NCBI GenBank assembly: GCA_050953245.1
Contig: JBMNMG010000003.1
Coordinates: 12,192 to 76,191 of the forward strand
Length of the DNA: 64,000 nucleotides
Reading direction: 5' to 3'
Origin: Bacteroidales bacterium
GTDB taxonomy: Bacteria; Bacteroidota; Bacteroidia; Bacteroidales; BM520
Under the pieces are notes generated by a model that was not told the DNA's origin, ran no database searches, and saw only the letters and a list, made by a program, of their open reading frames with translations. Numbering within the stretch: the stretch's first letter is position 1; each line of letters opens with the position of its first letter. Position numbers and translations under genes: made by a program. Shown here piece by piece: positions 42,331 to 61,752 of this stretch.

Positions 42331-42381
42331 ATTATGATTTAATATTTTAATCTTAGCTATTTTTTCTATTGGTACAACATA

Positions 42382-44427: not shown

Positions 44428-44563
44428 AACTATATTTTTTTTAATTTATTTTTGACTTTATTTTAAATTTTTATTGTTTTTTATTTTATTGAATTGCAAC
44501 AAGAAATAAAGATTATTTATCATTCAATAATCATTCAATGATCGTTCAATAATTATTCAATAA

Positions 44564-46720: not shown

Positions 46721-46874
46721 TTTAAATTTTTATTGAGATAAAAAGTTTGATAAAAATATTTTTTTCAATTCTATTGCAAAGGTACTTAATTATATTAAAA
46801 AACGATAAAATATAATAAACAAATATTAGAGATTATTAATAGAAAAGTACGTTCTAAATAAGATAATCAGAAGT

Positions 46875-47948: not shown

Positions 47949-48022
47949 GAGTATTTTTTATCTTTTATCTTTGCAAAGATACAAATTTTAAATACATCAT
48001 TTAAGAAAGAAAATAAAAGTTT

Positions 48023-49240
48023 ATGAAAGTTTACGTTGCAATCCCTTTACTTAGAGAATTCGAAAATATTAATACACTTTTAGAGCATATTTTCAAGCAA
48101 GATTTTAAAAACTTTCATGTTGTGTTTTGCGTGAATAATCCTGCAGAATGGTATGATTTTGTACCCTCTTCAAAAGGGATGGCATCCCAAGTTAATTTAG
48201 AATCATTCCAAATAAAAGAAGAGGAAAATTCTTATCAAAATTCTTATGAAAAAGACTTAAAAGACAATTTAAAAACTCTTGATTATTTGCGAAGTTTAAA
48301 TAATCCGCTAATAACAATTATCGATAAATCAACAAGAAACAATGCCTTCCCATTGAAAAAATCGGGAGTGGGGTATGCACGTAAGGTTATTATGGATAAA
48401 ATAGCATCAATTGCTGATGATAATGATATTATAATAAGCTTAGACGGAGATACTATTTTTAGTCCCCAATATTTTTCTTCTGTATTGTATCAGTTTGAAA
48501 ATAATAAAGATGCACATGCTATTGCAGTTCCATATTATCATAGGTTGGAAGGCACCGAAGAACAAAAAAAAGCAGCTTTAAGATACGAGATTTATATGCG
48601 CCATTATTTAATTGAGATGCTTAAAATAAATAATCCTTATGCGTTTACTGCATTGGGTGCTGCTATTGCAGTAAAAGTCGGTTCATATAAAAAAAGTTGG
48701 TGGTATAACTCCATATTCGTCAGGAGAAGATTTTTATCTGTTGCAAAAAATAAGGAAACTTGGGAGATTTTGTTATGGTGTGATGAACATGTTTATCCTA
48801 AGGCAAGATTGTCGGATAGAGTGGGGTTTGGTACAGGTCCTGCAATTGATAAGGGTATGGGTGGTGATTGGGATTCTTATCCAATTTATAAAACCGAATA
48901 CTTTGAAAATGTCAAAAAAACTTTTGATCTCTTTCCAACTTTATTTGAAAAAGATGTTGATACGCCATTGACTCCTTTTTTGATGAAGCAATTTAATACA
49001 GATGATGTTTGGTCTCCTTTGCGGAAAAATTATAAACAGATAAATCAATTTGTCAGAGCTTGTGAAACTAAAATAGATGGGTTAAGAATTTTACAGTATT
49101 TAAAAAGTTCTTGTGACGATTTTAATTATTTCCCATATCATAAAGAAAACTTATATTCTGTAAGAGATTATTTATATCAAAAAGAAAATAATTTAAGGAT
49201 AAAGTTTGATGTAAATTTTCATTCTGTTTTTAAATGGTGA
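48023..49240 (+). CDS. family-2 glycosyltransferase, ORF intact but ~23 codons read out of the ancestral frame
   Basis: GT-A N-terminus (VAIPLL...FHVVFCVNN; DGDT). The expected ED motif (GGITPYSSGEDFYLLQKIRKLG) is encoded only in the alternative frame, 48696-48764. Confidence 0.6.
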   Translation: MKVYVAIPLLREFENINTLLEHIFKQDFKNFHVVFCVNNPAEWYDFVPSSKGMASQVNLESFQIKEEENSYQNSYEKDLKDNLKTLDYLRSLNNPLITIIDKSTRNNAFPLKKSGVGYARKVIMDKIASIADDNDIIISLDGDTIFSPQYFSSVLYQFENNKDAHAIAVPYYHRLEGTEEQKKAALRYEIYMRHYLIEMLKINNPYAFTALGAAIAVKVGSYKKSWWYNSIFVRRRFLSVAKNKETWEILLWCDEHVYPKARLSDRVGFGTGPAIDKGMGGDWDSYPIYKTEYFENVKKTFDLFPTLFEKDVDTPLTPFLMKQFNTDDVWSPLRKNYKQINQFVRACETKIDGLRILQYLKSSCDDFNYFPYHKENLYSVRDYLYQKENNLRIKFDVNFHSVFKW

Positions 49241-49354
49241 TTTTTGAAAAGTTTAAAATAATTTAGAAATCCAATCTGAAATAAATCTAAAATAACTACT
49301 TTTGCAATAAGAATAGAAGGCTTTTCAACATCAAATTAATAAGACGATTTATTT

Positions 49355-50272
49355 ATGATTGTAATATTAGGACCAACAGCTACAGGAAAAACAAAATTAG
49401 CAGCTGAGATTGCATATAGGCTAAATGCTGAAATAATTAGTGCCGATTCGCGTCAAGTTTATAAAAATATGACAATTGGTTCCGGTAAAGATTACAATGA
49501 TTATATAGTAAACGGCTTTAAAATTCCATATCATTTAGTAGATATTGTTGAACCGGGATACGAATACAATATTTTTGAGTATAAAAAAGATTTTTTAGTT
49601 GCTTACAATGAAATTTTATCCCGGAATAAAAAAGTTATTTTGTGCGGTGGTTCCGGAATGTATTTAGAGTCTGTTATTTCAAAATATCGATTAGATGAAG
49701 TTCCAATTAACAATGATTTAAGAAAAAATTTATGCAGCAAATCCAATGATGAATTGGTTGAGATGCTATCCCAAATGAAAACACTTCATAATATCACTGA
49801 TAGTGAAGATAGAGATAGAATTATCCGTGCCATTGAAATTGAAACTTATATGAAATTGCATCCTGAAGTTGAAGATAATTACGTAGTTCCATCCTCAATT
49901 TATGGAATAAGAGGTGATCGAGAATTTATCAGACAAAGAATTACAGATAGGCTTTATTATAGATTGGAAAATCAAGATATGGTGGGAGAAGTTGAGAGGT
50001 TATTGGATTCCGGTGTTGATTCTGAAAAGTTGAAAAATTACGGATTAGAATATAAGTTTTTAACTAAATATATCTTAGGTGAAATTCCTTACGAGATGAT
50101 GGTAAAAAAGCTAAATATTGCAATTCATCAATTTTCGAAACGTCAGATGACTTGGTTTAGACGTATGGAACGCAAAGGGTTTAAGATCAATTGGATAGAT
50201 GTAGAATTGCCTCTGGAGGATAAGGTGGAATTTATTTTTAATGATTTAAAGAGTAAAAATCTATTTGAATAA
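49355..50272 (+). CDS. miaA: tRNA dimethylallyltransferase
   Basis: P-loop GPTATGKT, DSRQVYK, QMTWFRR motifs. 305 aa. Confidence 0.9.
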   Translation: MIVILGPTATGKTKLAAEIAYRLNAEIISADSRQVYKNMTIGSGKDYNDYIVNGFKIPYHLVDIVEPGYEYNIFEYKKDFLVAYNEILSRNKKVILCGGSGMYLESVISKYRLDEVPINNDLRKNLCSKSNDELVEMLSQMKTLHNITDSEDRDRIIRAIEIETYMKLHPEVEDNYVVPSSIYGIRGDREFIRQRITDRLYYRLENQDMVGEVERLLDSGVDSEKLKNYGLEYKFLTKYILGEIPYEMMVKKLNIAIHQFSKRQMTWFRRMERKGFKINWIDVELPLEDKVEFIFNDLKSKNLFE

Positions 50273-50320
50273 AACATTGAGAATCATCTTGATTATAAAT
50301 AAAATTTGAGCTAAAAAATA

Positions 50321-52006
50321 ATGAAAATAAAAAATAAAGAAATTCTTGAAAAAGTCGAGATCTTTGATGCGGCAAACGATGGAAATGCTGTAGGTAGAAG
50401 TGATAATGATGTTGTTGTATTTGTTCCGTTTGCAGCACCGGGAGATGTTGTTGACATACAAATTACCCGTAAGAAAAAATCCTTCAAATACGGAAAAATC
50501 ATAAAGTTTCATAAATATTCCGAACATAGGGTAGAACCTGTTTGTGAGCATTACGGCTTATGCGGTGGATGTAAATGGCAGCATATAGATTATAACTTCC
50601 AATTACAATTTAAACAAAAGCAAGTAAAAGACGCATTAGAGCGTATTGGACACATCTCAATCAACAATATGATGCCAATTATTGGCGCAGATGATATTTA
50701 TTTTTATAGAAATAAATTAGAATTTACATTCTGCGATTTTAGATGGATGCCAACAGGAGAATTTGAGAGTGAAGATAAAGAAAACCGTAACTTAAACGGA
50801 TTGGGATTCCATCTTCCAAATATGTTTGACAGAGTAATAAATATTAACAAATGTCATCTTCAACCGGATCCATCTAATAGCATTAGAAATTTCGTAAAAG
50901 AATATGCTGATAATCACAACTTAGAGTTTTACAATATTAAAAAACATACGGGATTTTTACGTAATCTAACTATCCGAATGTCTAATACAGGAGGATTAAT
51001 GGTAGTTGTGATTGTAAATAACAAAGACGATGAAAAATTATTTCCGCTCTTAGATAGCATCCATAAAGAATTTCCTGAAATTACTTCCTTAATGTATTGT
51101 GTAAACTCTAAATTTAATGATGATTATTCGGACCAAGAAGTAATATTATATAAAGGAAACGATCATTTAGTAGAACAAATGGATGATTTAAAATTTATAG
51201 TCGGTCCAAAATCATTTTATCAAACAAATCATAAACAAGCATATAAATTGTATTCCAAAGCCTTAGAGTTTGCTAATTTAACAGGTAATGAAATCGTTTA
51301 TGACTTATACACAGGAACAGGTACCATTGCAAATTTCGTTGCTCCTTACTCCAAAAAAGTAATAGGAATAGAAATTATTGAACAAGCTATTGAAAACGCA
51401 AAAGAAAACGCAAAACTTAATAATTTAAATAATACTTTTTTTGTAAGCGGTGACATGGCAAAAATCCTAACAGATGATTTTATTCAACAAAACGGTAAAG
51501 CAGATGTTGTAATCACAGATCCTCCCCGAGCCGGAATGCATACAAACGTCATAAATCAATTGTTGAAATTAGAGCCTAATAAAATAGTCTATGTTAGCTG
51601 TAACCCTTCTACACAAGCACGAGACATTGAACTTTTGTCAGAAAAATATACAGTTGAAAAAATTCAACCCATAGACATGTTTCCTCAAACAAAACATGTG
51701 GAGACGATAGCTTTATTGTCCAAACTAAATACGAAGCATCACTTAGATATAGAAATAGATGAAGATGAATTATCAGAAATTGACTTTTCAAAAGATGCAA
51801 CTTATGGAGAAATTAAAAAGTATGTGTTAGATAAATATAGTTTAAAAGTTTCAAGCCTATATATTGCACAAGTAAAAAGGAAACACGGTCTAATAGAAAG
51901 AGAAAATTATAATTTTAGTAAGAAAGAAAATCAAAGAGTACCAAATTGTCCAGAAGAAAAAGAAAAAGCAATAGAAGATGCTTTAGAGTATTTTGGAATG
52001 ATTTAA
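50321..52006 (+). CDS. rlmD: 23S rRNA (uracil-C5)-methyltransferase RlmD/RumA family with ~90-aa C-terminal extension
   Basis: TRAM domain, Fe-S Cys cluster (C...CGGCKWQH), SAM motif DLYTGTGT, VSCNPSTQARD, DMFPQTKHVE. The ORF continues ~90 codons past the usual end. Confidence 0.85.
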   Translation: MKIKNKEILEKVEIFDAANDGNAVGRSDNDVVVFVPFAAPGDVVDIQITRKKKSFKYGKIIKFHKYSEHRVEPVCEHYGLCGGCKWQHIDYNFQLQFKQKQVKDALERIGHISINNMMPIIGADDIYFYRNKLEFTFCDFRWMPTGEFESEDKENRNLNGLGFHLPNMFDRVININKCHLQPDPSNSIRNFVKEYADNHNLEFYNIKKHTGFLRNLTIRMSNTGGLMVVVIVNNKDDEKLFPLLDSIHKEFPEITSLMYCVNSKFNDDYSDQEVILYKGNDHLVEQMDDLKFIVGPKSFYQTNHKQAYKLYSKALEFANLTGNEIVYDLYTGTGTIANFVAPYSKKVIGIEIIEQAIENAKENAKLNNLNNTFFVSGDMAKILTDDFIQQNGKADVVITDPPRAGMHTNVINQLLKLEPNKIVYVSCNPSTQARDIELLSEKYTVEKIQPIDMFPQTKHVETIALLSKLNTKHHLDIEIDEDELSEIDFSKDATYGEIKKYVLDKYSLKVSSLYIAQVKRKHGLIERENYNFSKKENQRVPNCPEEKEKAIEDALEYFGMI

Positions 52007-52010
52007 GAAA

Positions 52011-52048
52011 AATAATGCCTCAGATTAGATTCTGAGGCATTATTTTTT
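52011..52048 (+). terminator. intrinsic terminator after rlmD
   Basis: AATAATGCCTCAGA/TCTGAGGCATTATT 14-bp stem plus a T-run. Confidence 0.8.
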
Positions 52049-52076
52049 ACTTATTTTAACGCAGTAAATCATATTA

Positions 52077-52106
52077 TTGAAGGGGATCCACTTTATATGC
52101 TATAAT
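52077..52106 (+). promoter_or_regulatory. sigma70/sigmaA-type promoter TTGAAG-N18-TATAAT
   Basis: Hexamers at 52077-52082 and 52101-52106, ~55 nt upstream of the C-protein start. This is unlike the TAnnTTTG boxes used elsewhere in the window. Confidence 0.45.
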
Positions 52107-52159
52107 TAGGTAGTTAATCTATACATTTAGAAAGGTAAAATATAGAATTGGAGAATGAT

Positions 52160-52381
52160 ATGGGATTTTCATATAACAAATTATGGAAGTTATTAATAGA
52201 TAAAAATATGAAAAAAACAGACTTACAATGTGCAATAGCAACAACACCCAAGACAATAGCAAAAATGGGAAGAGACGAAAATGTAAGTTTAGAAACATTA
52301 GGAAAGATTTGTGAATATTTTCAGTGTGATATTGGAGATATTATTGAATACAGAAGAAAGAATGAAGAGGAAATCAAATGA
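52160..52381 (+). CDS. small XRE-family HTH protein (candidate R-M controller, C protein)
   Basis: 73 aa HTH (KKTDLQCAIATTPKTIAKMGRDENVSLETLGKICEYF). GGAG sits 6 nt upstream of the ATG. ATGA overlap with the first methyltransferase gene. Confidence 0.6.
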   Translation: MGFSYNKLWKLLIDKNMKKTDLQCAIATTPKTIAKMGRDENVSLETLGKICEYFQCDIGDIIEYRRKNEEEIK

Positions 52382-53406
52382 GATTTATTGGTGGCAAAAC
52401 GCTGATTATACCATATATATTAGAATTAATTAAAGAAAAAACAATAGATGTGAAAAGTATATCAGATGTATTTGCTGGTTCAGGAGTAGTTTCTCGTGAA
52501 TTTAAAAATCTCGGATATGATGTTATATCTAACGATTTGATGTATTTTTCATATGTGTTATTAAGAGGAACAGTTGGGATAAATTCTAAATTAGAATTTA
52601 TAAATTTAGGTATATCAGATCCAATAGCATATCTAAATAAACTTACTTTAGAAAATATGAATTTAGATTTAGAGAACTGCTTTATTTACCAAAATTATAG
52701 TCCTAATGGTGGAAGAATGTATTTCACAGAAGATAATGCTTTAAAAATTGATTTAGTTAGGGCTCAGATTGAAAACTGGTATGAAGCTTCTATGATCAAT
52801 GAAGACGAGTATTTTTACTTACTTGCATGTCTTATAGAAGCAGTACCTTTTGTAAGCAATATAACAGGTGTATATGGAGCTTATTTAAAGCATTGGGATA
52901 AAAGGGCATTAAATAATTTAGAAATAAAAAATGTAGATTTATCAATTAATAATTCAGTAGGACAAGCATATAATGAAGATTCTAATAAATTAATTGAAAA
53001 TATAAAAACAGATTTAGCATACTTTGACCCACCATATAATCAAAGACAGTACTTGCCTAATTATCATGTATTAGAAACAATTGCTAAATATGATTCTCCT
53101 AGAATAAAAGGAGTGACTGGATTAAGAGATTATTCTGAACAAAAAAGTGACTATTGTAAAAAAGACTCAGTTTACAATGCTTTTGAAGATTTAATCAAAA
53201 AGACTAATTCGAAATATATTATTCTTAGCTATAATACAGAAGGATTATTATCCCATGATGAGATTATTAGTATTTTAGAAAAATATGGAAAGCGAGATAC
53301 TGTAGACTACAAATTTATCGACTATAGAAGATATAAGAACGCACATACAAATAAAAATAAAAACTTAAAAGAAATATTATATTTTGTAGAAAAGGAGCAG
53401 TTATGA
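52378..53406 (+). CDS. N6-adenine DNA methyltransferase (Dam/D12 class), equivalent to the N-terminal half of M.FokI
   Basis: MRFIGGK start, DVFAGSG (motif I), FDPPY (motif IV). 342 aa. Confidence 0.85.
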   Translation: MRFIGGKTLIIPYILELIKEKTIDVKSISDVFAGSGVVSREFKNLGYDVISNDLMYFSYVLLRGTVGINSKLEFINLGISDPIAYLNKLTLENMNLDLENCFIYQNYSPNGGRMYFTEDNALKIDLVRAQIENWYEASMINEDEYFYLLACLIEAVPFVSNITGVYGAYLKHWDKRALNNLEIKNVDLSINNSVGQAYNEDSNKLIENIKTDLAYFDPPYNQRQYLPNYHVLETIAKYDSPRIKGVTGLRDYSEQKSDYCKKDSVYNAFEDLIKKTNSKYIILSYNTEGLLSHDEIISILEKYGKRDTVDYKFIDYRRYKNAHTNKNKNLKEILYFVEKEQL

Positions 53407-54251
53407 GCGGAAATTATATAAAATCACCATTTAATTACATTGGAAATAAACATAGATTATTAGCTCAAATATTGCCTCTATTTCCTCAAAATATAGACAC
53501 TTTCTATGATGTGTTTTGTGGTGGTTTAGATGTTTCTGTTAATGTTAAAGCGAATAGGAAAATAGCTAATGATATAAACTATTTTGTAATTGAAATTTTA
53601 GAAATGTTTAAAAAGACTGATAGCAAAGAACTTTTACAAGATATTGATGATGTAATAAGTAAATTTAATTTATCTAAAGATAACAAAGAATCATATTATG
53701 AATTTAGAGAATATTATAATAAAAATAAAGACCCGCTTTTGCTATATGTTTTGATGTGTTATTCCTTTAATTACCAGTTTAGGTTTAATTCAAATCATGA
53801 CTATAATAACCCTGCTGGAACTAATAGGAGTAGTTTTAATGAAAATATGAAAAATAGACTTACTTCTTTTAGAGACAAACTTTTCAATATAGAATTTAGC
53901 AATAAGAATTTTAAAGAATTTGATTTTTCTAAAATTAAAAGTTCAGACTTTGTATATTGTGATCCGCCTTATAGAAGCTCTGTAGGTTCATATAATGATG
54001 GTAAAAGAGGATTTGAAGGATGGACTCTTGATGATGATCTAGCCTTATTTGATATATTAGATGAATTAAATGATAGAAATATTAAATTTGCATTATCAAA
54101 TGTATTTTTTAATAATGGATTAGCTAATAAAGAGTTACAAGAGTGGAGTAGAAAATATAAAGTCCACTTGTTAAAGATAAATTACTCAAATAGTAATTAT
54201 CAACGTAATAAGCTAGGCGAAACTGAAGAAGTTTTGATTACAAATTACTAG
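53403..54251 (+). CDS. N6-adenine DNA methyltransferase (Dam/D12 class), equivalent to the C-terminal half of M.FokI
   Basis: NYIGNKHRLL, DVFCGG (motif I), CDPPY (motif IV). 282 aa. AAGGAG SD and ATGA overlap. Confidence 0.85.
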   Translation: MSGNYIKSPFNYIGNKHRLLAQILPLFPQNIDTFYDVFCGGLDVSVNVKANRKIANDINYFVIEILEMFKKTDSKELLQDIDDVISKFNLSKDNKESYYEFREYYNKNKDPLLLYVLMCYSFNYQFRFNSNHDYNNPAGTNRSSFNENMKNRLTSFRDKLFNIEFSNKNFKEFDFSKIKSSDFVYCDPPYRSSVGSYNDGKRGFEGWTLDDDLALFDILDELNDRNIKFALSNVFFNNGLANKELQEWSRKYKVHLLKINYSNSNYQRNKLGETEEVLITNY

Positions 54252-54259
54252 GAGGAAAT

Positions 54260-56033
54260 ATGGCAGAAAGAACATTGGGTTGGATACAAAATCCATCAAG
54301 TTTTGAAAATTTAAAAAATGTAGTTTCTGTTTTTGATAAAAATACTGATATGTATAAGGAAATCTTAAATACTAAACTTCCTAAATTAGTAAAAGATTTA
54401 GAATTACAAAATAAACTTATTTCAGAAATGAAAAAAGATCCACTTGAAATGGACTATGTTTTATTAAAAGGTCATGGTATAAAATCAGGTCAGAAAAGAG
54501 CAGATGCAGGGTGTAGTGGTATTGTTCAAGCTGCCATTACAACACAAGGTGGTAGAGCTTACACAGATGATTGGACTGCTGATGGATTTTTAAGATGGGG
54601 AATATCCATAGGACTTTTAGATTATGATACAGAAAAAGATACTGTCTCTATAACACAACTGGGAAAGGATTTTGTTTACTCAGATTCTGAAGATTTGGAT
54701 AAAGAAATATTAACTACTGCATTTTTATCATATCCACCAGCAGTAAGAATTTTGACTTTATTAGAAAATGGTGAGCATTTAACTAAGTTTGAATTAGGAA
54801 AACAACTTGGTGGACTTGGAGAAGCTGGATTTACCTCTATACCTCAAGATTTATATATCCAAGCAATAGAACTAGCAGCTGATAAAGACAAAGCAAGTAT
54901 TCGTTCAAATACAGAAGGTTCAGCTGATAAGTATGCTAGGATGATTTCTGGCTGGTTATCTAAAGTCGGGCTTAGTTCAAAGAATTGAAAAAGAAGTTTC
55001 TACTAAGATAGGTAGATGTCGAGTATAAAGTTAAAATTGGTCATTCTTTTAGAATTACATTAAAAGGAATCAAAGAATTAAAAAGGGCAAGGGGTATATC
55101 ATCTTCATTCCAAAGACTGATAAAATAGTGTATTGGCAAATGTTAGCAACTAAGGGCAAGGACAGAGACTATATTAGAAATAGACGTGGACATATAATTA
55201 ATTCAATTACTAATAGAGATAGAACCTTAGAAGATATAAAAGTTTATCTGTCAGAAAATGATATAAAAGAAAGCATTGCAACAATAGAAGATGAATTAAA
55301 AGTTATTGAAGCGATAGGATTATCAGTTAAACATGGTAGGAATGGATATTCGATAGATGATAATATAATTAAATTGGCAATTCCAAGAACAAAGATTTCT
55401 AAGACTAATGTATTGGAATTAAAAGACAAAGTTAGGGATAGATTGAAATATGTTGATCACAGATATCTCGCACTAATTGATTTAGCTTATGACGGAACTG
55501 CTAATAGAGATTTTGAAATTCAAACAATAGACCTTTTAATTAATGAACTTAAGTTTAAAGGGGTTCGTCTAGGAGAAAGCAGAAAACCAGATGGAATTAT
55601 ATCTTATAATATTAATGGCGTAATTATAGATAACAAGGCTTATTCTACTGGATATAATCTACCAATTAATCAAGCAGATGAAATGATTAGATATATCGAA
55701 GAAAATCAAACTAGAGATGAAAAAATAAATTCAAATAAATGGTGGGAAAGCTTTGATGAAAAAGTTAAGGATTTCAACTATTTATTTGTATCATCTTTCT
55801 TTAAGGGAAACTTTAAGAATAATTTGAAACATATAGCTAATAGAACTGGTGTAAATGGTGGAGCTATTAATGTAGAAAATTTATTGTATTTTGCAGAAGA
55901 ATTAAAAGCTGGAAGATTATCTTATATTGATTCATTTACGATGTATGATAATGATGAGATATATGTAGGAAATATTATGGATTATAGTAATGTAAAAATT
56001 GCTGCTGAAGAAGAAAGTCATTATTCGATTTAA
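54260..56033 (+). pseudogene. FokI-family type IIS restriction endonuclease, three frameshifts
   Basis: The N-terminal ORF aligns by eye to the FokI recognition domain (GWIQNPSSFENLK...YPPAVRILTLLE...SADKYARMISGWL). The C-terminal ORF aligns to the FokI linker and cleavage domain (SRKPDG...IIDNKAY...GYNLPINQADEMIRYIEENQTR). Frame path is 2>0>1>0 between 54970 and 55126. Confidence 0.85.
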
Positions 56034-56083
56034 TAACAAGGATTATTTTTATTAAAAATACAATCTAAGTGGAGGATTAAATT

Positions 56084-57724
56084 TTGAAATACGCTCAATA
56101 TTACAAATGTGCTTTGCAAGTAAATCCAAGCGCATACTCTCAATATCGTGGGAAAGAAAAAATGGATGAATCAGAATATAATACACAAATCTTAAATATA
56201 TGTAAAGAAGAAAATATTAGAGTAGTTGGTTTAGCAGATCATGGCTCAGTTGAAAGAGCAGAAAATCTAAGAAAACTTCTAACAGATAATGGTATTTTAG
56301 TTTTTCCAGGATTTGAAATATCTACGGCAGAAAAAATTCATATAGTTTGTTTATTCTCTCCAGAAACAGATGCTAATGAGCTAAACCGTATTCTAGGACA
56401 ATTAGGAATGCCAGAAATAAAAAATGGTACAGAAAAAAGTAATTTATCCTGTATTGATATAGCTAAAAAGATAGCTGAAAATGATGGATTTTGGTATGCT
56501 GCACACATAACTAGTGATAATGGAATTTTAAAGCTAGGTCAATTACAACATGTGTGGACAAATGAATTATTAATAGCGGCTCAAATTCCAGATAGTGAAG
56601 AAAAAATAGATCCAAACTATAAAAATATAATTAAAAATAAAGAACCTCATTATAAAAGAAAAAACGTTGTTGCTTATATAAATGCTAAAGACATTTGCGA
56701 TCCAATGGATTTGAAACTTGAAACTGCAACCACACTTATTAAAATGTCTGAATTAAACTTTGATTCATTTAAGTCTGCATTTACAGATCCAACATCAAGA
56801 ATTAAGCTAAATAGTTCTATAAAAACAAAATATAAAAGTTATATCTCAAGAATATGTGTAAAAGGCGGTTATTTAGATGGGCTGGAGCTAGATTTCTCTG
56901 ATGAATTAAATACTATAATAGGTGGAAGAGGTACCGGAAAATCGACTTTAATTACTTTTATAAGATATGTATTAGGAAACTACTCATATGACAAAGAATT
57001 AGAAAAAGAAATTGAAGACATGATTAAAAATAATTTAGGGACATCTGGAGAAATAAATATCTACTTATCTTCATATTCACTTAATGGGCAAAAATATAAG
57101 TTAATAAAAAGATATAATCAAAATACTACTGTATTTAATGAAGATGGTAGTTTGTCTGAATTAACTATCACAGATCTTTTGCCTAAGATAGAAATTTATG
57201 GTCAAAATGAATTAATCGACGCAATTAAATCTTCAGAAACAATTACTAATATTGTTAAACGTTTAATAAAAATTGATGAGAATATTTTAAAAGAAAAGAA
57301 AATGTTCTATAAAGAATTGAAAGAGAACACCCAAAAGATAATCTCCATTAACGAGGAAATAAATAAATTAGGAGCAACACGTCAGGCATTATTAAATTTA
57401 GCAAATGATATAATTAGGCTAAATGAAGAAAATAAAATTTTAGGTTTAAGTAAAGAAGAACTTTCTTTTTATCATGCAATCAGTAATCCTGAGAATATTT
57501 CTGACTTTTATACAAATAAAGAGTTAATAGACTTAACACAAGACCTGACCCAGACTATTTCAAAGGAGATGACCTCCGACTGGATGATGAGAGAATCTGG
57601 CATAGCAAATATGAGAAGAACAGTAAAAAGGCTGTTGGCAGATTATAACTATCCTGAAAACCATCGAAGTGATATTATTGATCTAATAGTTGAGCAAGCA
57701 GAGTATTTTGATATAGGAGCATAA
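56084..57724 (+). CDS. chimeric ORF: PHP-like domain plus Walker-A ATPase N-lobe fused to an HsdR C-terminal (DUF3387-like) tail
   Basis: N-terminus has YKCALQVNP...GLADHGS...GFEIS..KIHIVCLF (PHP-like), then Walker A GGRGTGKST and a coiled coil. The last ~110 aa (LGLSKEELSFYHAI...DWMMRES...VKRLLADYNYP...VEQAEYF) match the type I HsdR C-terminus. No Walker B or signature region is visible. Confidence 0.55.
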   Translation: MKYAQYYKCALQVNPSAYSQYRGKEKMDESEYNTQILNICKEENIRVVGLADHGSVERAENLRKLLTDNGILVFPGFEISTAEKIHIVCLFSPETDANELNRILGQLGMPEIKNGTEKSNLSCIDIAKKIAENDGFWYAAHITSDNGILKLGQLQHVWTNELLIAAQIPDSEEKIDPNYKNIIKNKEPHYKRKNVVAYINAKDICDPMDLKLETATTLIKMSELNFDSFKSAFTDPTSRIKLNSSIKTKYKSYISRICVKGGYLDGLELDFSDELNTIIGGRGTGKSTLITFIRYVLGNYSYDKELEKEIEDMIKNNLGTSGEINIYLSSYSLNGQKYKLIKRYNQNTTVFNEDGSLSELTITDLLPKIEIYGQNELIDAIKSSETITNIVKRLIKIDENILKEKKMFYKELKENTQKIISINEEINKLGATRQALLNLANDIIRLNEENKILGLSKEELSFYHAISNPENISDFYTNKELIDLTQDLTQTISKEMTSDWMMRESGIANMRRTVKRLLADYNYPENHRSDIIDLIVEQAEYFDIGA

Positions 57725-57959
57725 TGATGTTTTAAGAAAATTAATCAACGATTCAATCAGATCTAAACCTGCAAGTAAACTCTTGATAAATTTTCTGTTA
57801 AAAAAGAAACTGATAGTATTCCTTTTGAAATAAAAAAATTAGGGATATTAATATACCTGATAGACTGGATAAATTAAAATCACTTGCAATGAAAATGATT
57901 AAAAAAACACCTTTTTTGTTTATTTCTTGTGTATTATAAAATAAGTATTATATTTGTAG

Positions 57960-58038
57960 TAATAATTAGTAAGAGTCTTTTTAAACGAGAGCGTGGATTG
58001 TTGTTCCACGAGGCAGTTTAAGAAGACTCTTATTTTTT
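57960..58038 (+). ncRNA. family C small RNA cassette
   Basis: TATATTTG -7 box at 57949-57956. Long hairpin TAAGAGTCTTTTTAAAC/GTTTAAGAAGACTCTTA encloses CGTGGA/TCCACG, followed by a T6 run. Confidence 0.4.
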
Positions 58039-58154
58039 ATTCCAATATCAGATTATTGCTGTTAGAAATACTATTAAAACAGAAATTGTTCTCAACTTTT
58101 TGTTAGCGATAAAATATTCTTTTGTTTATTTGAAAAATATTATTATATTTGTAA

Positions 58155-58231
58155 TGCTGTAAAAAGCCGAAGGCGGCGCGAGTAACGTCAAGCTTAGCCG
58201 GGGAGGTGGATGTAATGTCCACCTTTTTTTT
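58155..58231 (+). ncRNA. family B small RNA cassette, copy 1
   Basis: TATATTTG -7 box at 58144-58151. GCCGAAGGCGGC hairpin. Terminator GGTGGA/TCCACC plus a T8 run. Confidence 0.45.
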
Positions 58232-58272
58232 GTTTTCACTTGTTTATTTGAAAAATATTATTATATTTGTAA

Positions 58273-58348
58273 TGCTGTAAAAAGCCGAAGGTGGCGCGAG
58301 TAACGTCAAGCTTAGCCGGGGAGGTGGATGTAATGTCCACTTTTTTTT
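58273..58348 (+). ncRNA. family B small RNA cassette, copy 2 (118-bp tandem duplicate)
   Basis: -7 box at 58262-58269. Near-identical to copy 1, with one C>U change that keeps a G-U pair in the first hairpin. Confidence 0.45.
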
Positions 58349-59077: not shown

Positions 59078-61219
59078 ATGATGCAGGATAATACTGTAAA
59101 TATAATATTTAAGATAAGTGGTAATGCAACTGAAGCGATGCAGGACATTACAAAGCAATCTGCAGAAGTTGCAAAGTCCATTAATAAAACTGCAGGGTTT
59201 TTTGACAGCTTGGGTGGTAAAATACTTGTTATAAATCAAATTACAGCAGGTTTACAAAACTTAAGCAATGCATTTAACAGTGCCATTCAACCGGGCATTG
59301 CCCTTAATTCGCAACTATTAGACTTGTCGGCAATAGCTAATGTTGCAGGTGAAGATCTTAAACGTATTGAGGGCTATGCACGTGAAAGTGCTATGGCTTT
59401 TGGACTTGATGCGGCACAATCAGTAGAAAGTTATAAGTTACTACTATCACAACTGTCACCGGAGCTTGCAAAAGCACCTAAAGCACTTAAGACAATGGGT
59501 GAAAATGTCGCAGTGCTAAGCAAAACAATGGGCGGTGATACAACAGCGGCTGCAGAAGTATTGACAACCGCAATGAATCAGTTCGGAGTAAGCTTAAAAG
59601 ACCCTACAGAAGCTGCAAAGACAATGGCAAACATGATGAATATTATGGCTGCTGCAGGGCGTGAAGGCTCTGCAGAGTTGCCGGCAATTAAAGTTGCATT
59701 GGAACAAGCAGGTATGGCAGCAAAGGCTGCAAACGTATCTTTCGAGGAAACCAATGCAGCAATACAAGTACTTGACAAAGCAGGCAAGAAAGGCAGTGAA
59801 GGTGGTGTTGCACTTCGTAACGTGTTAAACACACTTGCAAGAGGTCGTTTTTTACCTAAAGATGTGTTAGAGGAACTGCAAGCTGCAGGTGTTAATGTAA
59901 GTAGTTTAACGGATAAAACAAAAACACTTACAGAGAGATTGCAGGTGTTACAACCGGTACTTAAAGATGATGCACTGTTTTCAAAACTATTTGGACGGGA
60001 AAACACCAATGCGGCAATGGCACTTGTACAAGGAGTGTCGCAGGTTGAAAAATATACAGAAGCAATTACCGGAACAAATACAGCATTTGAACAAGCAGAT
60101 ATTATTATGGATTCCTATGCAGAAAGACAAAAGAGAGTTCAGGCACGTTTTCAAAACATGAAAATATCAATATTCAATGCAACCGGAAGTCTGGGTATTT
60201 GGGTAGATACTATAGCAAAATCGGCAATACCACTTGCCCAGCTTGTACCACTCATTTATGGAGTTAACTCTGCCACACGTAAAATAACTGCATCTCTTGT
60301 TGCAACAAACGCAAGTATAGTAGGCACGGGAGGAATGTTTAAGTGGTTAGGTGCAACTGCAAAAAGAGTTTGTACACAGATATCTGTTGCAATTATGAAT
60401 ATTCCTATAATTGGTTGGATAGCGGCAATTATAGCAGCAATAATAGCAGTATCGGCAATATTGTGGAATAAAAGTGAGGGTTTTAGAAAGATAGTATTAG
60501 GTGTTTGGGAGGTTATTAAGGGCATAGGACAGTATCTGCTACAGTTGGGTAAAAAGATATTTAGTAACTTTATTGAAGGCTTTAAAAACCTATTAAATGC
60601 ACTTAAAACAGTGTTTAATGCTATTGTAGGTTTTATTAGGAAGATCAAAGACTTCTTTGTAAGAATGTTTAATTGGGTCACTGAAAAGCTAAAAAACCTA
60701 ACCGGTTTCTTAAAGCGTGTATTTGCTCCGGTAATTAAGTTTTTTGAATCATTATGGGATTATATAAAAGCAATATTCAATAACATCTCACAATTTATGG
60801 GAAAACTGTTTAATCCGGTTATTAAGCTATGGAATAAGATGACCGGTAAAACAGTAGAGTTATATACCACAGGAGCAGCTAAAGGGTCAGAGAGTTGGAA
60901 TAAGAAAAACAAAACTCAAGAGGATCAACCCTTAAGTACGTTAGATACCTTAGATGCTATAGGTGGACTTACTGAATCCGCAACAAGCTTTGGAGGTGAT
61001 TATGGTTTTAGTAACAATCTTTCAGAATCCGGTCTTGAAATAACATCAGGAGGAAAGCAGATCAAGAATGTAAACATAAGCATTGGATCACTTATTGGGA
61101 CAAACACAAACATATTCTCATCGTCAAAAGATGATCCAGCTTCTGCAGATGATTTTATGAGCAAATTAAGTAATGCATTGATGCAAATAGTAAACGATGC
61201 AAATTATGTAGTAGAATAA
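59078..61219 (+). CDS. phage tail tape measure protein (TP901-type core)
   Basis: 713 aa, Ala/Gly-rich helical N-terminal core (AIANVAGEDLKRIEGYARESAMAFGLDAAQS...), central hydrophobic segment (IIGWIAAIIAAIIAVSAILW). Visibly higher G+C than the flanks. Confidence 0.8.
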   Translation: MMQDNTVNIIFKISGNATEAMQDITKQSAEVAKSINKTAGFFDSLGGKILVINQITAGLQNLSNAFNSAIQPGIALNSQLLDLSAIANVAGEDLKRIEGYARESAMAFGLDAAQSVESYKLLLSQLSPELAKAPKALKTMGENVAVLSKTMGGDTTAAAEVLTTAMNQFGVSLKDPTEAAKTMANMMNIMAAAGREGSAELPAIKVALEQAGMAAKAANVSFEETNAAIQVLDKAGKKGSEGGVALRNVLNTLARGRFLPKDVLEELQAAGVNVSSLTDKTKTLTERLQVLQPVLKDDALFSKLFGRENTNAAMALVQGVSQVEKYTEAITGTNTAFEQADIIMDSYAERQKRVQARFQNMKISIFNATGSLGIWVDTIAKSAIPLAQLVPLIYGVNSATRKITASLVATNASIVGTGGMFKWLGATAKRVCTQISVAIMNIPIIGWIAAIIAAIIAVSAILWNKSEGFRKIVLGVWEVIKGIGQYLLQLGKKIFSNFIEGFKNLLNALKTVFNAIVGFIRKIKDFFVRMFNWVTEKLKNLTGFLKRVFAPVIKFFESLWDYIKAIFNNISQFMGKLFNPVIKLWNKMTGKTVELYTTGAAKGSESWNKKNKTQEDQPLSTLDTLDAIGGLTESATSFGGDYGFSNNLSESGLEITSGGKQIKNVNISIGSLIGTNTNIFSSSKDDPASADDFMSKLSNALMQIVNDANYVVE

Positions 61220-61230
61220 ACAGTGTTAAG

Positions 61231-61752
61231 ATGATAAGAATAACAACAGGAGACCAAACCATAGATATACATACTTATGACAAAGCAAACTTACGTGTAC
61301 CAACAGTTGCGGGATACCCGCAACATATTATGAGTATTCCTAAGAACAACGTGATATTACGCAATAAAAACAACGATACTATTGAATTTTTTGACGTAAA
61401 AATTGATGTAACTAAAGCAAACAATATTGTAAGTACACCACTTGTAAACAGACATGGTGAAATCAAAGAATTTATACAACAACAAGATTATACAATCAAA
61501 TTTAGTGGTAACATCATAGAAGAACGTGGAATATTCCCGTATGAAGAGTTAAAGAAGTTAAATGACATCTTAAATGAAGAGGACAGTTTAGATGTATCAA
61601 GTGAATACTTAAATTGCTTTGGAATTACTAAAATTGCATTAGAAAAAGCTAATTTTAAACAAAGTAGTATTAAATATTATAATTTAATGCCTTTTGAATT
61701 AAATTTTAAAAGCGATATGGATTATGAGTTTTTAATAATGGATAATCAATAA
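61231..61752 (+). CDS. hypothetical protein in the distal-tail-protein position
   Basis: Starts 12 nt after the tape measure stop. 173 aa. Assignment rests on position only. Confidence 0.35.
   Translation: MIRITTGDQTIDIHTYDKANLRVPTVAGYPQHIMSIPKNNVILRNKNNDTIEFFDVKIDVTKANNIVSTPLVNRHGEIKEFIQQQDYTIKFSGNIIEERGIFPYEELKKLNDILNEEDSLDVSSEYLNCFGITKIALEKANFKQSSIKYYNLMPFELNFKSDMDYEFLIMDNQ

What the first reader, a model, noticed from the sequence alone, without database searches (positions are those of the whole stretch)
51690..57727. Firmicutes-style gene cassette grafted onto the 3' end of rlmD in a Bacteroidota backbone
Seen:
- The RlmD ORF runs ~90 codons beyond DMFPQTKHVETIALL, where TrmA/RlmD enzymes normally end. 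Its tail reads ...YIAQVKRKHGLIERENYNFSKKENQRVPNCPEEKEKAIEDALEYFGMI.
- After its terminator comes a TTGAAG-N18-TATAAT promoter.
- Every downstream gene has a GGAG/AAGGAG/AGGAGG box 6-9 nt before its start (52150, 53391, 54249, 56071), ATGA start/stop overlaps, and one TTG start.
- The other ~45 genes in the window lack SDs and sit behind TAnnTTTG boxes.

Knowledge: Bacteroidota mostly do not use SD-led initiation or sigma70 -35/-10 promoters. As I recall it, rum/rumA is a documented integration target of streptococcal and clostridial elements, which bring a replacement 3' end for the gene. This specific tail also looks like ones I have seen on Firmicutes RlmD.

Inference: this is either cross-phylum acquisition of a defence island by insertion into rlmD, or an assembly chimera. 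No integrase and no second att copy are visible, and the cargo is decayed.
Basis: partly seen in the sequence, partly recalled or inferred. Interest (0 to 1): 0.7.

Follow-up and report, generated by a model that had tools for sequence, protein, structure and literature searches.

The report
Gram-positive mobile element remnant in Bacteroidales rlmD
A Bacteroidales chromosome carries the decayed left end of a mobile element of a kind described so far only in Gram-positive bacteria, inserted at that element family's exact target in the rRNA methyltransferase gene rlmD and bringing a FokI-type restriction-modification system, which is direct evidence of DNA transfer between bacterial phyla.

Summary
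The assembly-chimera alternative is rejected.

- **Left junction.** Native Bacteroidales rlmD ends at the GA of codon E461 (GAG, 51701-51702). This is the target of the rumA/rlmD-specific large-serine-recombinase ICE/IME elements described in streptococci, enterococci and clostridia.
- **Foreign segment.** From 51703 the DNA is foreign:
  - a 100-codon start-less tail, 84-94% identical in protein to Peptoniphilaceae left ends;
  - a terminator, a sigma70-type promoter and an HTH regulator;
  - two Dam-like methyltransferases;
  - a FokI-like endonuclease, frameshifted in this strain;
  - a TrlF-family defence ATPase cut at codon 430 and fused to a 116-codon hsdR 3' fragment.
- **Relatives elsewhere.** The same module occurs behind host rlmD genes at 90-96% nucleotide identity:
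  - in Aedoeadaptatus ivorii;
  - in an intact ~12-kb element that ends in a serine recombinase fused to the rlmD 3' codons;
  - behind a trmA-family gene in Campylobacter ureolyticus;
  - inside a conjugative element.
- **Independent support.** Three independent sequencing runs reproduce the Bacteroidales junction.
- **What is missing.** No recombinase, attR or displaced rlmD 3' end remains in the window, so this is an immobile remnant.
- **Mosaic alleles.** Two strains with near-identical backbones carry cassette alleles about 8% apart. Patches of these alleles are 99-100% identical to alleles in other phyla, which suggests continuing recombinational exchange. This last point needs read-level confirmation.

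The parts
50321..51702 (+). Native Bacteroidales rlmD, codons 1-460 plus the GA of codon 461
   Evidence: It is 80% nt identical to the empty-site relative L085 up to 51702. It is 100% identical to three Logan contigs. The best named homologues are Bacteroidales RlmD at about 64%. NCBIfam rumA matches residues 20-461.
51701..51702 (+). Crossover dinucleotide GA in the GAG (E461) codon of the HVE motif; the attL core
   Evidence: Homology to the Bacteroidales relative ends at 51702. Homology to Firmicute elements begins at 51694-51695. L010 has the same GA at attL and attR. This matches the published target (PMC4120198).
51703..52006 (+). Element-derived 100-codon start-less tail fused in frame to rlmD
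   Evidence: It is 84-94% aa identical to left ends in Peptoniphilaceae and Coriobacteriia genomes and 88-93% to Megasphaera, Anaerococcus, Finegoldia and Peptoniphilus fragments. Many positions are invariant across 30 homologues. No Pfam domain and no fold match were found.
52007..52048 (+). Intrinsic terminator hairpin after the fused rlmD
   Evidence: 18-pair stem followed by a T run.
52077..52106 (+). Sigma70-type promoter-like site, TTGAAG-18-TATAAT with a TG extension
   Evidence: It lies between the terminator and the HTH gene, within the block conserved with L013, L090 and L111. Function is not shown.
52160..52381 (+). HTH_26 (Cro/C1-type) regulator, 73 aa; probable controller of the downstream module
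   Evidence: Pfam HTH_26 E 3e-18. It is 98.6% aa identical in A. ivorii and 98.5% in Anaerococcus sp. directly after the tail. A related HTH_26 follows the tail fragment in Megasphaera.
52378..53406 (+). M1, a D12-class N6-adenine DNA methyltransferase (342 aa), equivalent to the N half of M.FokI
   Evidence: Pfam MethyltransfD12 E 3e-45. PADLOC MTase_II PDLC03287 profile positions 1-339 of 646. The FxGxG and DPPY motifs are read directly from the translation.
53403..54251 (+). M2, a D12-class / Dam-family methyltransferase (282 aa), equivalent to the C half of M.FokI
   Evidence: Pfam E 2.5e-36. TIGR00571 dam scores above its cut-off. PADLOC PDLC03287 positions 361-641.
54260..56033 (+). FokI-like type IIS restriction endonuclease, a pseudogene in this strain (two ORFs: 54260-54988 and 55128-56033)
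   Evidence: FokI_D1 and dom_2 domains are in the first ORF; D3 and the cleavage domain are in the second. The gene is intact at 589 aa in L001, L013 and L111. The intact form matches PDB 1FOK over its full length, E 1e-145. The window has insertions at 54974, 55013 and 55106-55107 relative to L111, and 4 indels relative to L001 and L013.
56084..57373 (+). trlF': the N-terminal 430 codons of a TrlF-family PHP/AAA defence ATPase (TTG start), truncated
   Evidence: NCBIfam TrlF_fam_ATP scores 244 bits, below the 350 cut-off, covering profile positions 1-516 of 944. It is 88% identical to the 858-aa C. ureolyticus TrlF, and the homology ends at residue 430. Nucleotide homology to L090, L111 and L115 ends at 57370-57372.
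57374..57724 (+). 'hsdR: the C-terminal 116 codons of a type I restriction R subunit, fused in frame to trlF'
   Evidence: Pfam T1RH-like_C. PADLOC REase_I positions 855-1021 of 1029. tblastn hits are annotated type I R subunits. The closest relatives (69-75% aa) lie on contigs where about half the ORFs have SD boxes, so the origin is probably also foreign. This is weak evidence.
57725..57911 (.). Unresolved right boundary; Bacteroidota-type promoter/small-RNA-like units start at about 57912
   Evidence: No homology to any fetched locus lies beyond 57712. There is no attR, no displaced rlmD 3' end and no recombinase. It is identical in L001 up to that contig's end at 58151.

Best explanation
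Window 51703-57724 is the immobilised left-end remnant of a rumA/rlmD-targeting integrative element. This class is mobilised by a single large serine recombinase and has been described so far in Firmicutes.

**Steps, each marked shown or inferred**
1. Inferred: an element of the L111 type (about 12 kb) entered a Bacteroidales cell. Its order is tail, HTH, M1, M2, R.FokI-like, TrlF, two reverse ORFs, then a serine recombinase. A larger conjugative relative of the L117 type is an alternative.
2. Shown by the junction; inferred for the enzyme: its serine recombinase recombined attP with the GA of the conserved HVE (GAG) codon of the host rlmD. This replaced the last ~10 native codons with the element's 100-codon tail. 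Large serine recombinases need no host factors (established knowledge), which fits a target and reaction that work across phyla.
3. Shown as a structure; inferred as an event: a deletion then removed everything right of trlF codon 430. The lost parts are the rest of trlF, the backbone ORFs, the recombinase, attR and the displaced rlmD 3' codons. The deletion fused trlF' to a 'hsdR fragment, so the insert can no longer excise.
4. Shown: in this strain the endonuclease gene has also been frameshifted, while the regulator and both methyltransferase genes remain intact. The locus now most likely acts, if expressed at all, as a solitary m6A methyltransferase pair rather than a working defence system.
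5. Shown as a pattern; mechanism inferred: the interior of the remnant has been overwritten in patches by homologous recombination with related cassettes circulating in other phyla.
For: **Junction**
- Homology to the Bacteroidales empty-site relative ends at 51702.
- Homology to A. ivorii (90.4% over 4331 bp, 51694-56024) and Anaerococcus (92.8%) starts at 51694/5.
- A multi-host alignment shows host-specific rlmD up to GTGGA, then a shared GACGGTAGCTCTATTGTCC.

**Class identity**
- L010 and L022 (Peptoniphilaceae) carry the same tail (90% aa). They also carry a 558/560-aa Resolvase+Recombinase+Zn_ribbon protein whose C-terminus is the host rumA 3' end, with GA at both junctions.
- The literature describes exactly this architecture and target (PMC4120198, PMC4701971, PMC5357655).

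**Ancestral architecture**
- L111 has rlmD::tail-HTH-M1-M2-R-TrlF(858 aa)-orf410-orf326-orf54-SerRec::VESVVLMSK* and is 95.6% nt identical to window 52040-57370.
- L115 has a 608-aa serine recombinase directly abutting the tail and cassette.
- L117 has the cassette inside an element with RepA_N, VirD4, Maff2, PrgI and VirB4.

**Not a chimera**
- Three independent runs give the same junction.

**Backbone is Bacteroidota**
- RlmD relatives are Bacteroidales.
- A PorE T9SS protein scores E 8e-168.
- 0 of 35 backbone ORFs have an SD box.

**Remnant status**
- No recombinase, attR or displaced 3' end is present.
- The TrlF breakpoint is at residue 430.
- R carries indels.

**Mosaicism**
- Window versus L001 shows 4 mismatches across 40321-51750 and none across 57251-58151, but about 470 across 51751-57250.
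- Patches are 0-1% divergent from L111, L115 or L090 in different places for the two alleles.
Against: - No recombinase, attR or displaced rlmD 3' end survives in the window. Integration by the element's own enzyme inside a Bacteroidales cell is therefore inferred from the junction, not seen.
- The C. ureolyticus copy (L090) likewise lacks a recombinase within 10 kb. Either two similar decays happened independently, or a recombinase-less module can be inserted in trans.
- The origin of the 'hsdR fragment and the exact right boundary are unresolved.
- The interior of the window allele has no independent confirmation in a Bacteroidales context. L121 turned out to be an L111-type contig. Part of the mosaic could therefore be a metagenome-assembly path switch between co-resident cassettes.
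- Expression of sigma70/SD-driven genes in a Bacteroidales host is untested.
Confidence: 0.85

Rival explanations
1. Assembly chimera: a Bacteroidales contig was wrongly joined to a Firmicute contig inside rlmD.
For: The change of gene-expression signals at 51.7 kb is abrupt. Two Logan contigs (L002, L003) end at window position 52236, just inside the cassette. This shows that assembly graphs branch there.
Against: Identical junctions come from three independent runs, and one contig is continuous from 40321 to 58151. The join lies exactly at the known GA recombination target, which a random misjoin would not hit. A right-hand junction (trlF'-'hsdR) is shared by two different cassette alleles.
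Confidence: 0.02
2. A recombinase-less mini-module (tail-HTH-M1-M2-R-TrlF) was inserted in trans by a serine recombinase from another co-resident or transiently present element. On this reading it is not the decayed remainder of a complete element.
For: Both Gram-negative occurrences contain essentially the same gene set and no recombinase within reach: the Bacteroidales window and C. ureolyticus L090. Tandem arrays and recombinase-to-tail junctions exist (L077, L115, P0181). Several elements can therefore share one site.
Against: Any serine-recombinase integration of a circle leaves an attR and the displaced rlmD 3' codons. Neither is present in the window. The trlF gene is truncated and fused to a foreign gene fragment, which demonstrates a deletion at the right side. 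Intact relatives carry the recombinase in cis (L111, L010, L022).
Confidence: 0.1
3. The two Bacteroidales cassette alleles (window and L001) arose by two independent integrations of different elements, or by assembly path-switching between co-resident cassettes. On this reading recombinational overwriting of one resident remnant did not occur.
For: The two alleles are as far from each other (8.2-8.7%) as from alleles in other phyla. The window is 99.6% identical to the L111-type element over 54630-57279. Stretches identical in all alleles, such as 55.5-56.0 kb, would allow graph switches. No second dataset confirms the window's interior.
Against: Both alleles share the unique trlF(430)-'hsdR deletion junction and are 100% identical from 57251 onward. 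This argues for one ancestral insertion. The window allele carries private R-gene indels and private diverged patches (52.6-53.2 kb) that match none of the other alleles, so it is not a simple splice of two known sequences.
Confidence: 0.3
4. The extension and the cassette are native to this Bacteroidales lineage and were exported to Firmicutes, i.e. the direction of transfer is reversed.
For: The cassette's G+C (27.7%) is close to the backbone's (29-30%). It is foreign by G+C in A. ivorii, whose host flank is 56%.
Against: SD boxes and a sigma70 promoter occur only in the cassette. The tail family was found in 394 stretches from GTDB species genomes; all of the best 80 are non-Bacteroidota. 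The 120 best RlmD homologues, whose named members are Bacteroidales/Bacteroidetes, lack the tail except for the same-species P0001. The recombinase-bearing intact forms are on SD-using Firmicute-type contigs.
Confidence: 0.02

Closest known systems
rumA-targeting single-serine-recombinase ICEs and IMEs of Firmicutes: ICE-r and vanG elements, ICESp2905, ICE_Spy2096_rumA, IME_SpnAP200_rumA, and C. difficile CTn5 in 630Δerm (PMC4120198, PMC4701971, PMC5357655, PMC5704250)
   Same: - Insertion at the GA of the conserved GAG codon about 10-11 codons from the 3' end of the 23S rRNA m5U methyltransferase gene.
- The element's left end is a ~100-115-codon start-less ORF fused in frame to the host gene.
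- The window's tail is homologous to these left ends, including 61-68% aa identity to Streptococcus suis and S. plurextorum copies.
- Close relatives (L010, L022, L111) have the recombinase at the right end fused to the host 3' codons.
   Different: - The host is a Bacteroidales (phylum Bacteroidota). The papers read here report only Firmicutes hosts.
- The recombinase, attR and any transfer genes are gone, so the window copy is a fossil, not an element.
- The cargo here is a FokI-type R-M system plus TrlF, rather than the antibiotic-resistance genes that drew attention to this class.
FokI type IIS restriction-modification system (R.FokI, PDB 1FOK/2FOK; M.FokI two-domain methyltransferase)
   Same: - The intact allele of R (L001) aligns with FokI over residues 4-566, E 1e-145, with all four Pfam FokI domains.
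- M1 and M2 correspond to the two halves of a 646-aa two-domain methyltransferase model.
   Different: - The methyltransferase is split into two genes with an ATGA overlap.
- An HTH_26 regulator precedes the system.
- The recognition sequence is unknown.
- R is a frameshifted pseudogene in this window.
TrlF-family / Ppl-like PHP-AAA defence ATPases (NCBIfam NF045780; PADLOC Ppl)
   Same: The N-terminal 430 residues are 88% identical to an 858-aa TrlF-family protein and match the TrlF and Ppl models.
   Different: The protein is truncated at about half length and scores below the family cut-off (244 versus 350 bits). The C-terminal half of the 858-aa protein, which in P0245 carries the match to the C-terminal part of the PADLOC Ppl model, is replaced by a type I HsdR C-terminal fragment. 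It is presumably non-functional.
Gram-positive-derived DNA in Bacteroides conjugative transposons, e.g. the ermG/ermB regions of CTnGERM1 and CTnBST
   Same: Precedent for Firmicutes-to-Bacteroidota gene flow.
   Different: Those cases are cargo carried on Bacteroides-type elements. Here the junction itself is the product of a Gram-positive-type element's own site-specific recombination on a Bacteroidales chromosome.

Membership tests
rumA/rlmD-targeting large-serine-recombinase ICE/IME | Insertion at the GA dinucleotide of the conserved GAG (HVE) codon near the 3' end of rumA/rlmD | tested here: met
   The breakpoint is bracketed to 51694-51702 by homology to the empty-site relative (ends at 51702) and to Firmicute elements (begins at 51694/5). 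GA lies at 51701-51702. The same core is seen in L010 attL and attR. The published target is in PMC4120198.
rumA/rlmD-targeting large-serine-recombinase ICE/IME | Left end is a ~100-115-codon ORF without its own start, fused in frame to the host gene and homologous among elements | tested here: met
   There are 100 codons after E461. The tail is 84-94% aa identical to Peptoniphilaceae and Coriobacteriia left ends and 55-66% to Streptococcus and Lachnospiraceae ones.
rumA/rlmD-targeting large-serine-recombinase ICE/IME | Large serine recombinase gene at the right end, fused to the displaced host 3' codons (attR inside the gene) | tested here: not met
   tblastn with the L010 and L022 recombinases finds nothing in the window (best E 0.8). 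No displaced rlmD 3' end is present. The feature is present in the closest relatives L111, L010 and L022. The window copy is therefore a remnant, not an intact member.
rumA/rlmD-targeting large-serine-recombinase ICE/IME | Conjugation or mobilisation module | tested here: not met
   None lies between 51703 and 57724. The related L117 has RepA_N, VirD4, Maff2, PrgI and VirB4 next to the same cassette.
rumA/rlmD-targeting large-serine-recombinase ICE/IME | Ability to excise and transfer | not testable with these tools
   This needs PCR for attB and the circular form, plus mating experiments. Excision is not expected, given the missing attR and recombinase.
FokI-type type IIS R-M system | Endonuclease with FokI recognition subdomains D1-D3 and a FokI cleavage domain in one polypeptide | tested here: not met
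   All four domains are present but split across two frames by indels in the window. The feature is met in alleles L001, L013 and L111 (589 aa).
FokI-type type IIS R-M system | Two N6-adenine (D12-class) methyltransferase activities, one for each strand of an asymmetric site | tested here: met
   There are two intact D12 genes matching the two halves of a two-domain methyltransferase model. Actual methylation and the recognition sequence were not tested.
TrlF-family AAA-like ATPase | Full-length (~850-950 aa) protein scoring above the NCBIfam cut-off | tested here: not met
   It scores 244.5 bits against a 350 cut-off. Only profile positions 1-516 of 944 are covered, and homology to the 858-aa protein ends at residue 430.
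Type I restriction enzyme R subunit (HsdR) | HSDR_N nuclease, helicase motor and C-terminal domain | tested here: not met
   Only the C-terminal domain fragment is present (T1RH-like_C; PADLOC REase_I positions 855-1021 of 1029).

The most novel reading that the evidence does not exclude
The rlmD HVE codon may be a near-universal attB for one family of host-factor-independent serine recombinases. Their left ends are found joined to host rlmD/trmA-family genes in Bacillota, Actinomycetota (Gordonibacter), Campylobacterota and Bacteroidota; the other two Coriobacteriia loci were not checked upstream. On this reading the fossil copy in this Bacteroidales species still acts as a homologous landing pad. 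It is repeatedly overwritten by DNA from elements circulating in other phyla. Two observations point this way:
- patches are 99.6-100% identical to a Firmicute-type IME and to a C. ureolyticus allele;
- two alleles about 8% apart sit in backbones that differ by 0.03%.

That would make the locus a natural recorder of frequent, ongoing inter-phylum DNA entry into Bacteroidales.
Probability: 0.4. Interest if true: 0.65.

Novelty: new member of a known kind. Interest (0 to 1): 0.5.

Why it matters
rumA-targeting serine-recombinase elements are known as vehicles of vancomycin, macrolide and tetracycline resistance in streptococci, enterococci and clostridia. A junction made at their exact target in a Bacteroidales chromosome has three consequences.

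- **Host range.** The integration reaction of this family is not confined to Gram-positive hosts. The same left end is also joined to host rlmD in a Coriobacteriia genome (Gordonibacter) and the same cassette sits behind a trmA-family gene in Campylobacter ureolyticus. This bears on predicting where their resistance and defence cargo can end up.
- **A testable attB/attP pair.** The site offers a concrete pair for asking whether a single serine integrase works across phyla. That is also of interest for genome engineering of Bacteroidales.
- **Frequency of DNA entry.** If confirmed at read level, the patchwork identity between alleles in different phyla would be unusually direct evidence of how often foreign element DNA enters and recombines in a gut or mucosal Bacteroidales.

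In itself the locus is a decayed, probably non-defensive remnant.

Tried and rejected
- **Exact-sequence look-ups.** The window's RlmD and M1 proteins are not on record. The 99%-identical P0001 had to be used instead.
- **Second att copy or displaced 3' end.** tblastn with native C-termini and blastn-short with the junction gave only chance matches.
- **Visual check of downstream frames.** The three reading frames downstream of trlF, in the window and in C. ureolyticus, showed no recombinase or rlmD 3' remnants.
- **Serine-recombinase remnants.** tblastn in the window, L001, L090 and L013 found nothing.
- **Taxonomy of the 'hsdR fragment.**
  - Plasmid tblastn gave only <60% hits from many phyla, which is uninformative.
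  - A metagenome scan gave 69-75% relatives whose contigs use SD boxes. This is only weak evidence of non-Bacteroidota origin.
- **Empty-site synteny.** The 84% relative sits on a 1.5-kb contig with 59 bp of flank and no match downstream in the window. The 64% relative has tamB/tsaD after rlmD, which is not syntenic with the window. The native right flank therefore could not be defined.
- **P0253.** It was expected to confirm the window allele independently, but it is an L111-type contig.
- **Fold of the tail.** AlphaFold gave mean pLDDT 68.5 with three helices. Foldseek against the PDB gave no match with E < 1. Pfam gave only a chance-level L23 hit. The function of the conserved tail remains unknown.
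- **Rfam on 57.7-59.1 kb.** Nothing credible was found.
- **Phage database for the tape-measure gene.** Only distant hits were found.
- **Long RlmD homologues P0003, P0005 and P0032.** I considered them as other tailed Bacteroidales RlmDs and rejected that. Their extra length is internal duplication of the catalytic domain.

Full report
**1. What is in the sequence**

The window is about 29% G+C throughout. Several lines place its backbone in Bacteroidota:
- The RlmD N-terminal 460 residues have their best named relatives in Bacteroidales MAGs, at about 64% identity.
- A PorE-family type IX secretion protein (E 8e-168) and TonB-dependent receptors are encoded nearby.
- None of the 38 backbone ORFs upstream of the cassette has a Shine-Dalgarno (SD) box.

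The rlmD ORF (50321-52006) is 561 aa. The RlmD/TrmA models end at residues 461-468, and Bacteroidales homologues are 460-481 aa.

Downstream of rlmD lie, in order:
- an 18-bp-stem terminator (52007-52048);
- a TG-extended TTGAAG-18-TATAAT site (52077-52106);
- an HTH_26 regulator gene;
- two D12-class adenine methyltransferase genes;
- a FokI-like endonuclease split into two ORFs;
- a 546-aa ORF.

These are five tightly packed genes, each with a strong SD box, with two ATGA overlaps and one TTG start. Five of 5 cassette genes have an SD box against 0 of 38 backbone genes, a hypergeometric p of about 1e-6 by my arithmetic. TAnnTTTG occurs upstream of 16 of 38 backbone genes and 0 of 5 cassette genes. 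The cassette's tetranucleotide profile is the least backbone-like stretch of the window: r = 0.48 against 0.60-0.83.

**2. Not an assembly chimera**

A protein 99% identical to the 561-aa fusion (P0001) is encoded on contigs assembled independently from three sequencing runs: DRR784981, ERR13909482 and SRR31066337. All three have the same Bacteroidales genes upstream. The DRR784981 contig (L001) is collinear with the window from 40321 to 58151.

**3. The left junction at nucleotide resolution**

- The closest tail-less relative is P0002/L085: 84% aa identity, 470 aa, ending …HVENIVRLMKIK. It aligns at 80% nt identity up to window position 51702 and not beyond.
- Homology to Aedoeadaptatus ivorii DSM 10022 (L013) begins at 51694. 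It runs for 4331 bp at 90.4% identity to 56024.
- Homology to Anaerococcus sp. (L024) begins at 51695.
- I aligned the junction from the window, A. ivorii, A. acetigenes, Anaerococcus and Gordonibacter. The sequence is host-specific up to …GTGGA and then shared: GACGGTAGCTCTATTGTCCAAACTAAAT….

The crossover is thus the GA at 51701-51702, inside the GAG codon for E461 of the conserved HVE motif.

**4. What kind of element this is**

Srinivasan et al. 2014 (PMC4120198) and Ambroset et al. 2016 (PMC4701971) describe elements with these features:
- their left end is a 101-115-codon start-less ORF fused in frame to rumA;
- their right end is a large serine recombinase gene that becomes fused to the displaced rumA 3' codons.

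IMEs with the same specificity are also known (PMC5357655, PMC5704250).

The window's tail is 100 codons. In a scan of one genome per GTDB species, 394 stretches encode a relative of it:
- The best 80 are Peptoniphilaceae (84-94% aa), Coriobacteriia (Gordonibacter, Olsenella, Lancefieldella; 91-92%), Streptococcus suis and S. plurextorum (61-66%), Lachnospiraceae and Oscillospiraceae, and one Streptobacillus.
- The single 'Bacteroides' MAG contig (L074) has an rlmD 71% identical to a Lachnospiraceae one and 33% to the window's. It is mis-binned.

In L010 (Peptoniphilaceae bacterium AM52-5BH) and L022 (Peptoniphilus catoniae) the same tail is followed within 8-10 kb by a 558/560-aa protein. This protein has Resolvase, Recombinase and Zn_ribbon domains and ends in host rumA residues (…NVETVVLMSRIN*). 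GA is present at both junctions.

**5. The cassette's relatives and the ancestral architecture**

| Locus | Host or context | Content |
|---|---|---|
| L013 | A. ivorii; host flank 56% G+C, cassette 28% | tail-HTH-M1-M2-R in the same order behind its own 534-aa rlmD |
| L090 | Campylobacter ureolyticus | trmA-family gene ending …FPHTKHVE\|SIVILTKLN…, then a decayed tail, a decayed HTH, M1, M2, a split R and an 858-aa TrlF; 90.6% nt identical to window 52068-57372 |
| L111 | Low-G+C, SD-using contig | dnaE-pfk-pyk-rlmD::tail-HTH-M1-M2-R(589 aa)-TrlF(858 aa)-orf410-orf326-orf54-serine recombinase (one internal stop)::VESVVLMSK*; a complete ~12-kb element, 95.6% nt identical to window 52040-57370 |
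| L115 | Metagenome contig | A 608-aa serine recombinase abutting the tail and the same cassette |
| L117 | Conjugative element | The cassette next to RepA_N, a VirD4-type coupling protein, Maff2, PrgI and VirB4 |

The genes immediately downstream of the tail are otherwise extremely variable among 81 loci: 353 ORFs with almost no shared clusters. They include erm, copZ and metal genes, type I and type II R-M systems and helicases. The left end is therefore a cargo hot spot.

**6. The right side of the window copy**

The 546-aa ORF is 88% identical to the TrlF-family protein up to residue 430. After that it matches the C-terminal domain of type I HsdR. Nucleotide homology to L090, L111 and L115 stops at 57370-57372. 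The window contains no recombinase remnant, no second att and no displaced rlmD 3' end.

A deletion has therefore removed everything from trlF codon 431 through attR. The closest relatives of the 'hsdR fragment (69-75% aa) lie on contigs where roughly half the ORFs carry SD boxes. This hints that the fragment is also foreign. The true end of foreign DNA, somewhere between 57724 and about 57900, could not be fixed.

**7. State of the cargo in this strain**

R is intact (589 aa) in L001, L013 and L111, and matches FokI (PDB 1FOK) end to end. In the window it carries small insertions at 54974, 55013 and 55106-55107 relative to L111, and four indels relative to L001 and L013. These are not in homopolymers, and they break the frame between the recognition and cleavage domains. 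M1, M2 and the HTH gene are intact, and their catalytic and SAM motifs are readable in the translations. TrlF is half-length and scores below its family cut-off.

The locus therefore no longer encodes a working restriction or TrlF defence function. At most it methylates DNA, and whether its sigma70/SD signals are used in a Bacteroidales cell is untested.

**8. Mosaic alleles**

The window and L001 compare as follows:
- 4 mismatches across 40321-51750;
- 0 mismatches across 57251-58151;
- about 470 mismatches across 51751-57250.

In five-way alignments the two Bacteroidales alleles are about as far from each other (8.2-8.7%) as each is from the A. ivorii allele and the L111 and L115 metagenome alleles (7.0-9.8%). 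The C. ureolyticus allele is 8.6-9.4% from them over 52068-57372, and 11-12% when its decayed tail region is included. Different patches are nearly identical in different pairs:

| Allele | Region | Closest allele | Divergence |
|---|---|---|---|
| Window | 54630-57279 | L111 | ~8 SNPs plus three indel clusters (99.6% identity) |
| L001 | 53.5-54.7 kb | L111 | 0.3-1.0% |
| L001 | 52.0-52.6 and 55.0-55.6 kb | L115 | 0.3-1.5% |
| L001 | 56.5-57.25 kb | C. ureolyticus L090 | 0.7-1.7% |
| Window and L001 | 57301-57372 | C. ureolyticus L090 | 98.6% identity |

Both Bacteroidales alleles share the unique trlF(430)-'hsdR junction. The simplest reading is one ancestral insertion and deletion, followed by patchwise homologous replacement by incoming related cassettes.

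The caveat is that all of these are assemblies. Stretches identical in all alleles could let an assembler switch paths. The one extra dataset I hoped would confirm the window's interior (L121) turned out to be the L111-type element. I therefore hold this part at about 0.6.

**9. Mechanism, with status of each step**

Shown:
- the junction lies at the class-specific GA target;
- the left end is homologous to left ends of elements that carry the recombinase;
- an intact ~12-kb relative exists;
- the right half is absent and trlF is fused to 'hsdR;
- R carries frameshifts;
- the alleles are mosaic.

Inferred:
- the element entered by conjugation or mobilisation;
- its own serine recombinase was expressed and acted in the Bacteroidales cell, which is plausible because large serine recombinases need no host factors (established knowledge);
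- the order of the decay events;
- recombinational overwriting of the interior.

**10. The tail**

Thirty homologues share many invariant residues, so the tail is under selection as a protein. In P0181 it is read in frame after a recombinase C-terminus. In L115 the recombinase reads across the junction in another frame and stops after 19 codons. AlphaFold gives a modest three-helix model (pLDDT 68.5) with no Foldseek match in the PDB. Pfam gives only a chance-level L23 hit. Its function is unknown.

**11. Verdict**

This is a new member, in a new host phylum, of a known class of elements. It is a decayed one. It is good evidence of inter-phylum transfer and of the breadth of this integrase family's target. 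The possible ongoing allele exchange is the most interesting lead. Interest is 0.5.

Noticed in passing
window 57912-58348: There are two tandem copies (58117-58230 and 58235-58348, 96% identical, spacing 118 nt). Each holds a Bacteroidota-type TAnnTTTG promoter-like box, a ~70-nt G+C-rich segment (GCCGAAGGYGGCGCGAGTAACGTCAAGC…) and a hairpin plus T-run terminator. A third related promoter-like box at 57912-57958 is followed by a different 37-nt-arm hairpin (57961-58041). These look like small-RNA genes. No Rfam family matches. The L001 contig ends inside the first copy.
   Followed up: partly
window 59078-61752: A phage tape-measure-like gene (PhageMin_Tail, 713 aa) lies in the 59-61 kb stretch, which is 36-40% G+C against a 29% background. 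A DUF6046 gene follows it. No upstream phage genes are present, and neither gene has an SD box. It is probably a remnant of a Bacteroidota prophage or tail-like cluster directly beside the insertion. The best phage-database hit is only 36% aa, to an unannotated human-faecal phage contig.
   Followed up: partly
L090 (ENA ERZ27230489 k141_11279; protein named Campylobacter ureolyticus by NCBI), locus 4719-12577: The same FokI/TrlF cassette sits behind a trmA-family methyltransferase gene of a Campylobacterota genome, at the equivalent HVE codon. The tail and HTH are decayed, R is split and TrlF is full length. No recombinase lies within 10 kb. This looks like a second, independent fossil in another Gram-negative phylum.
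   Followed up: partly
L005 (Gordonibacter), L007 (Lancefieldella), L008 (Olsenella): Left-end tails 91-92% aa identical to the window's occur in three Coriobacteriia (Actinomycetota) genomes. In L005 (Gordonibacter) the upstream sequence was examined and is G+C-rich host rlmD up to the same junction. L007 and L008 were not checked upstream. The element family's host range therefore extends beyond Firmicutes there as well.
   Followed up: partly
L004 (Megasphaera vaginalis AWXA01000028.1), locus 10001-19338: A free-standing 139-aa tail fragment is followed by an HTH_26 gene, a complete type I R-M system (hsdM, hsdS, hsdR), a caspase-like protein and a TIR-domain protein. It is preceded by arsenic and copper resistance genes. 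This is an accreted island in which the tail marks the start of a defence-gene block.
   Followed up: no
window 42065-42295: Two ~87-nt direct repeats (about 87% identical; 42065-42151 and 42208-42294) lie in the intergenic region between the M20 peptidase gene (40913-42061) and the M49 peptidase gene (42382-44427). They were seen as secondary BLAST hits.
   Followed up: no
P0003, P0005, P0032 (RlmD homologues from ENA metagenomes): These over-long RlmD homologues (576-650 aa) owe their extra length to an internal duplication of ~100-180 residues of the methyltransferase domain, not to a tail. They are probably assembly artefacts.
   Followed up: partly
L111 locus 15983-17660: The serine recombinase of the otherwise intact ~12-kb element has a single in-frame stop (…HRQMMN*HKCTF…). 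After it the frame continues to the rlmD-derived C-terminus. This is either a very recent inactivation or a sequencing error.
   Followed up: no
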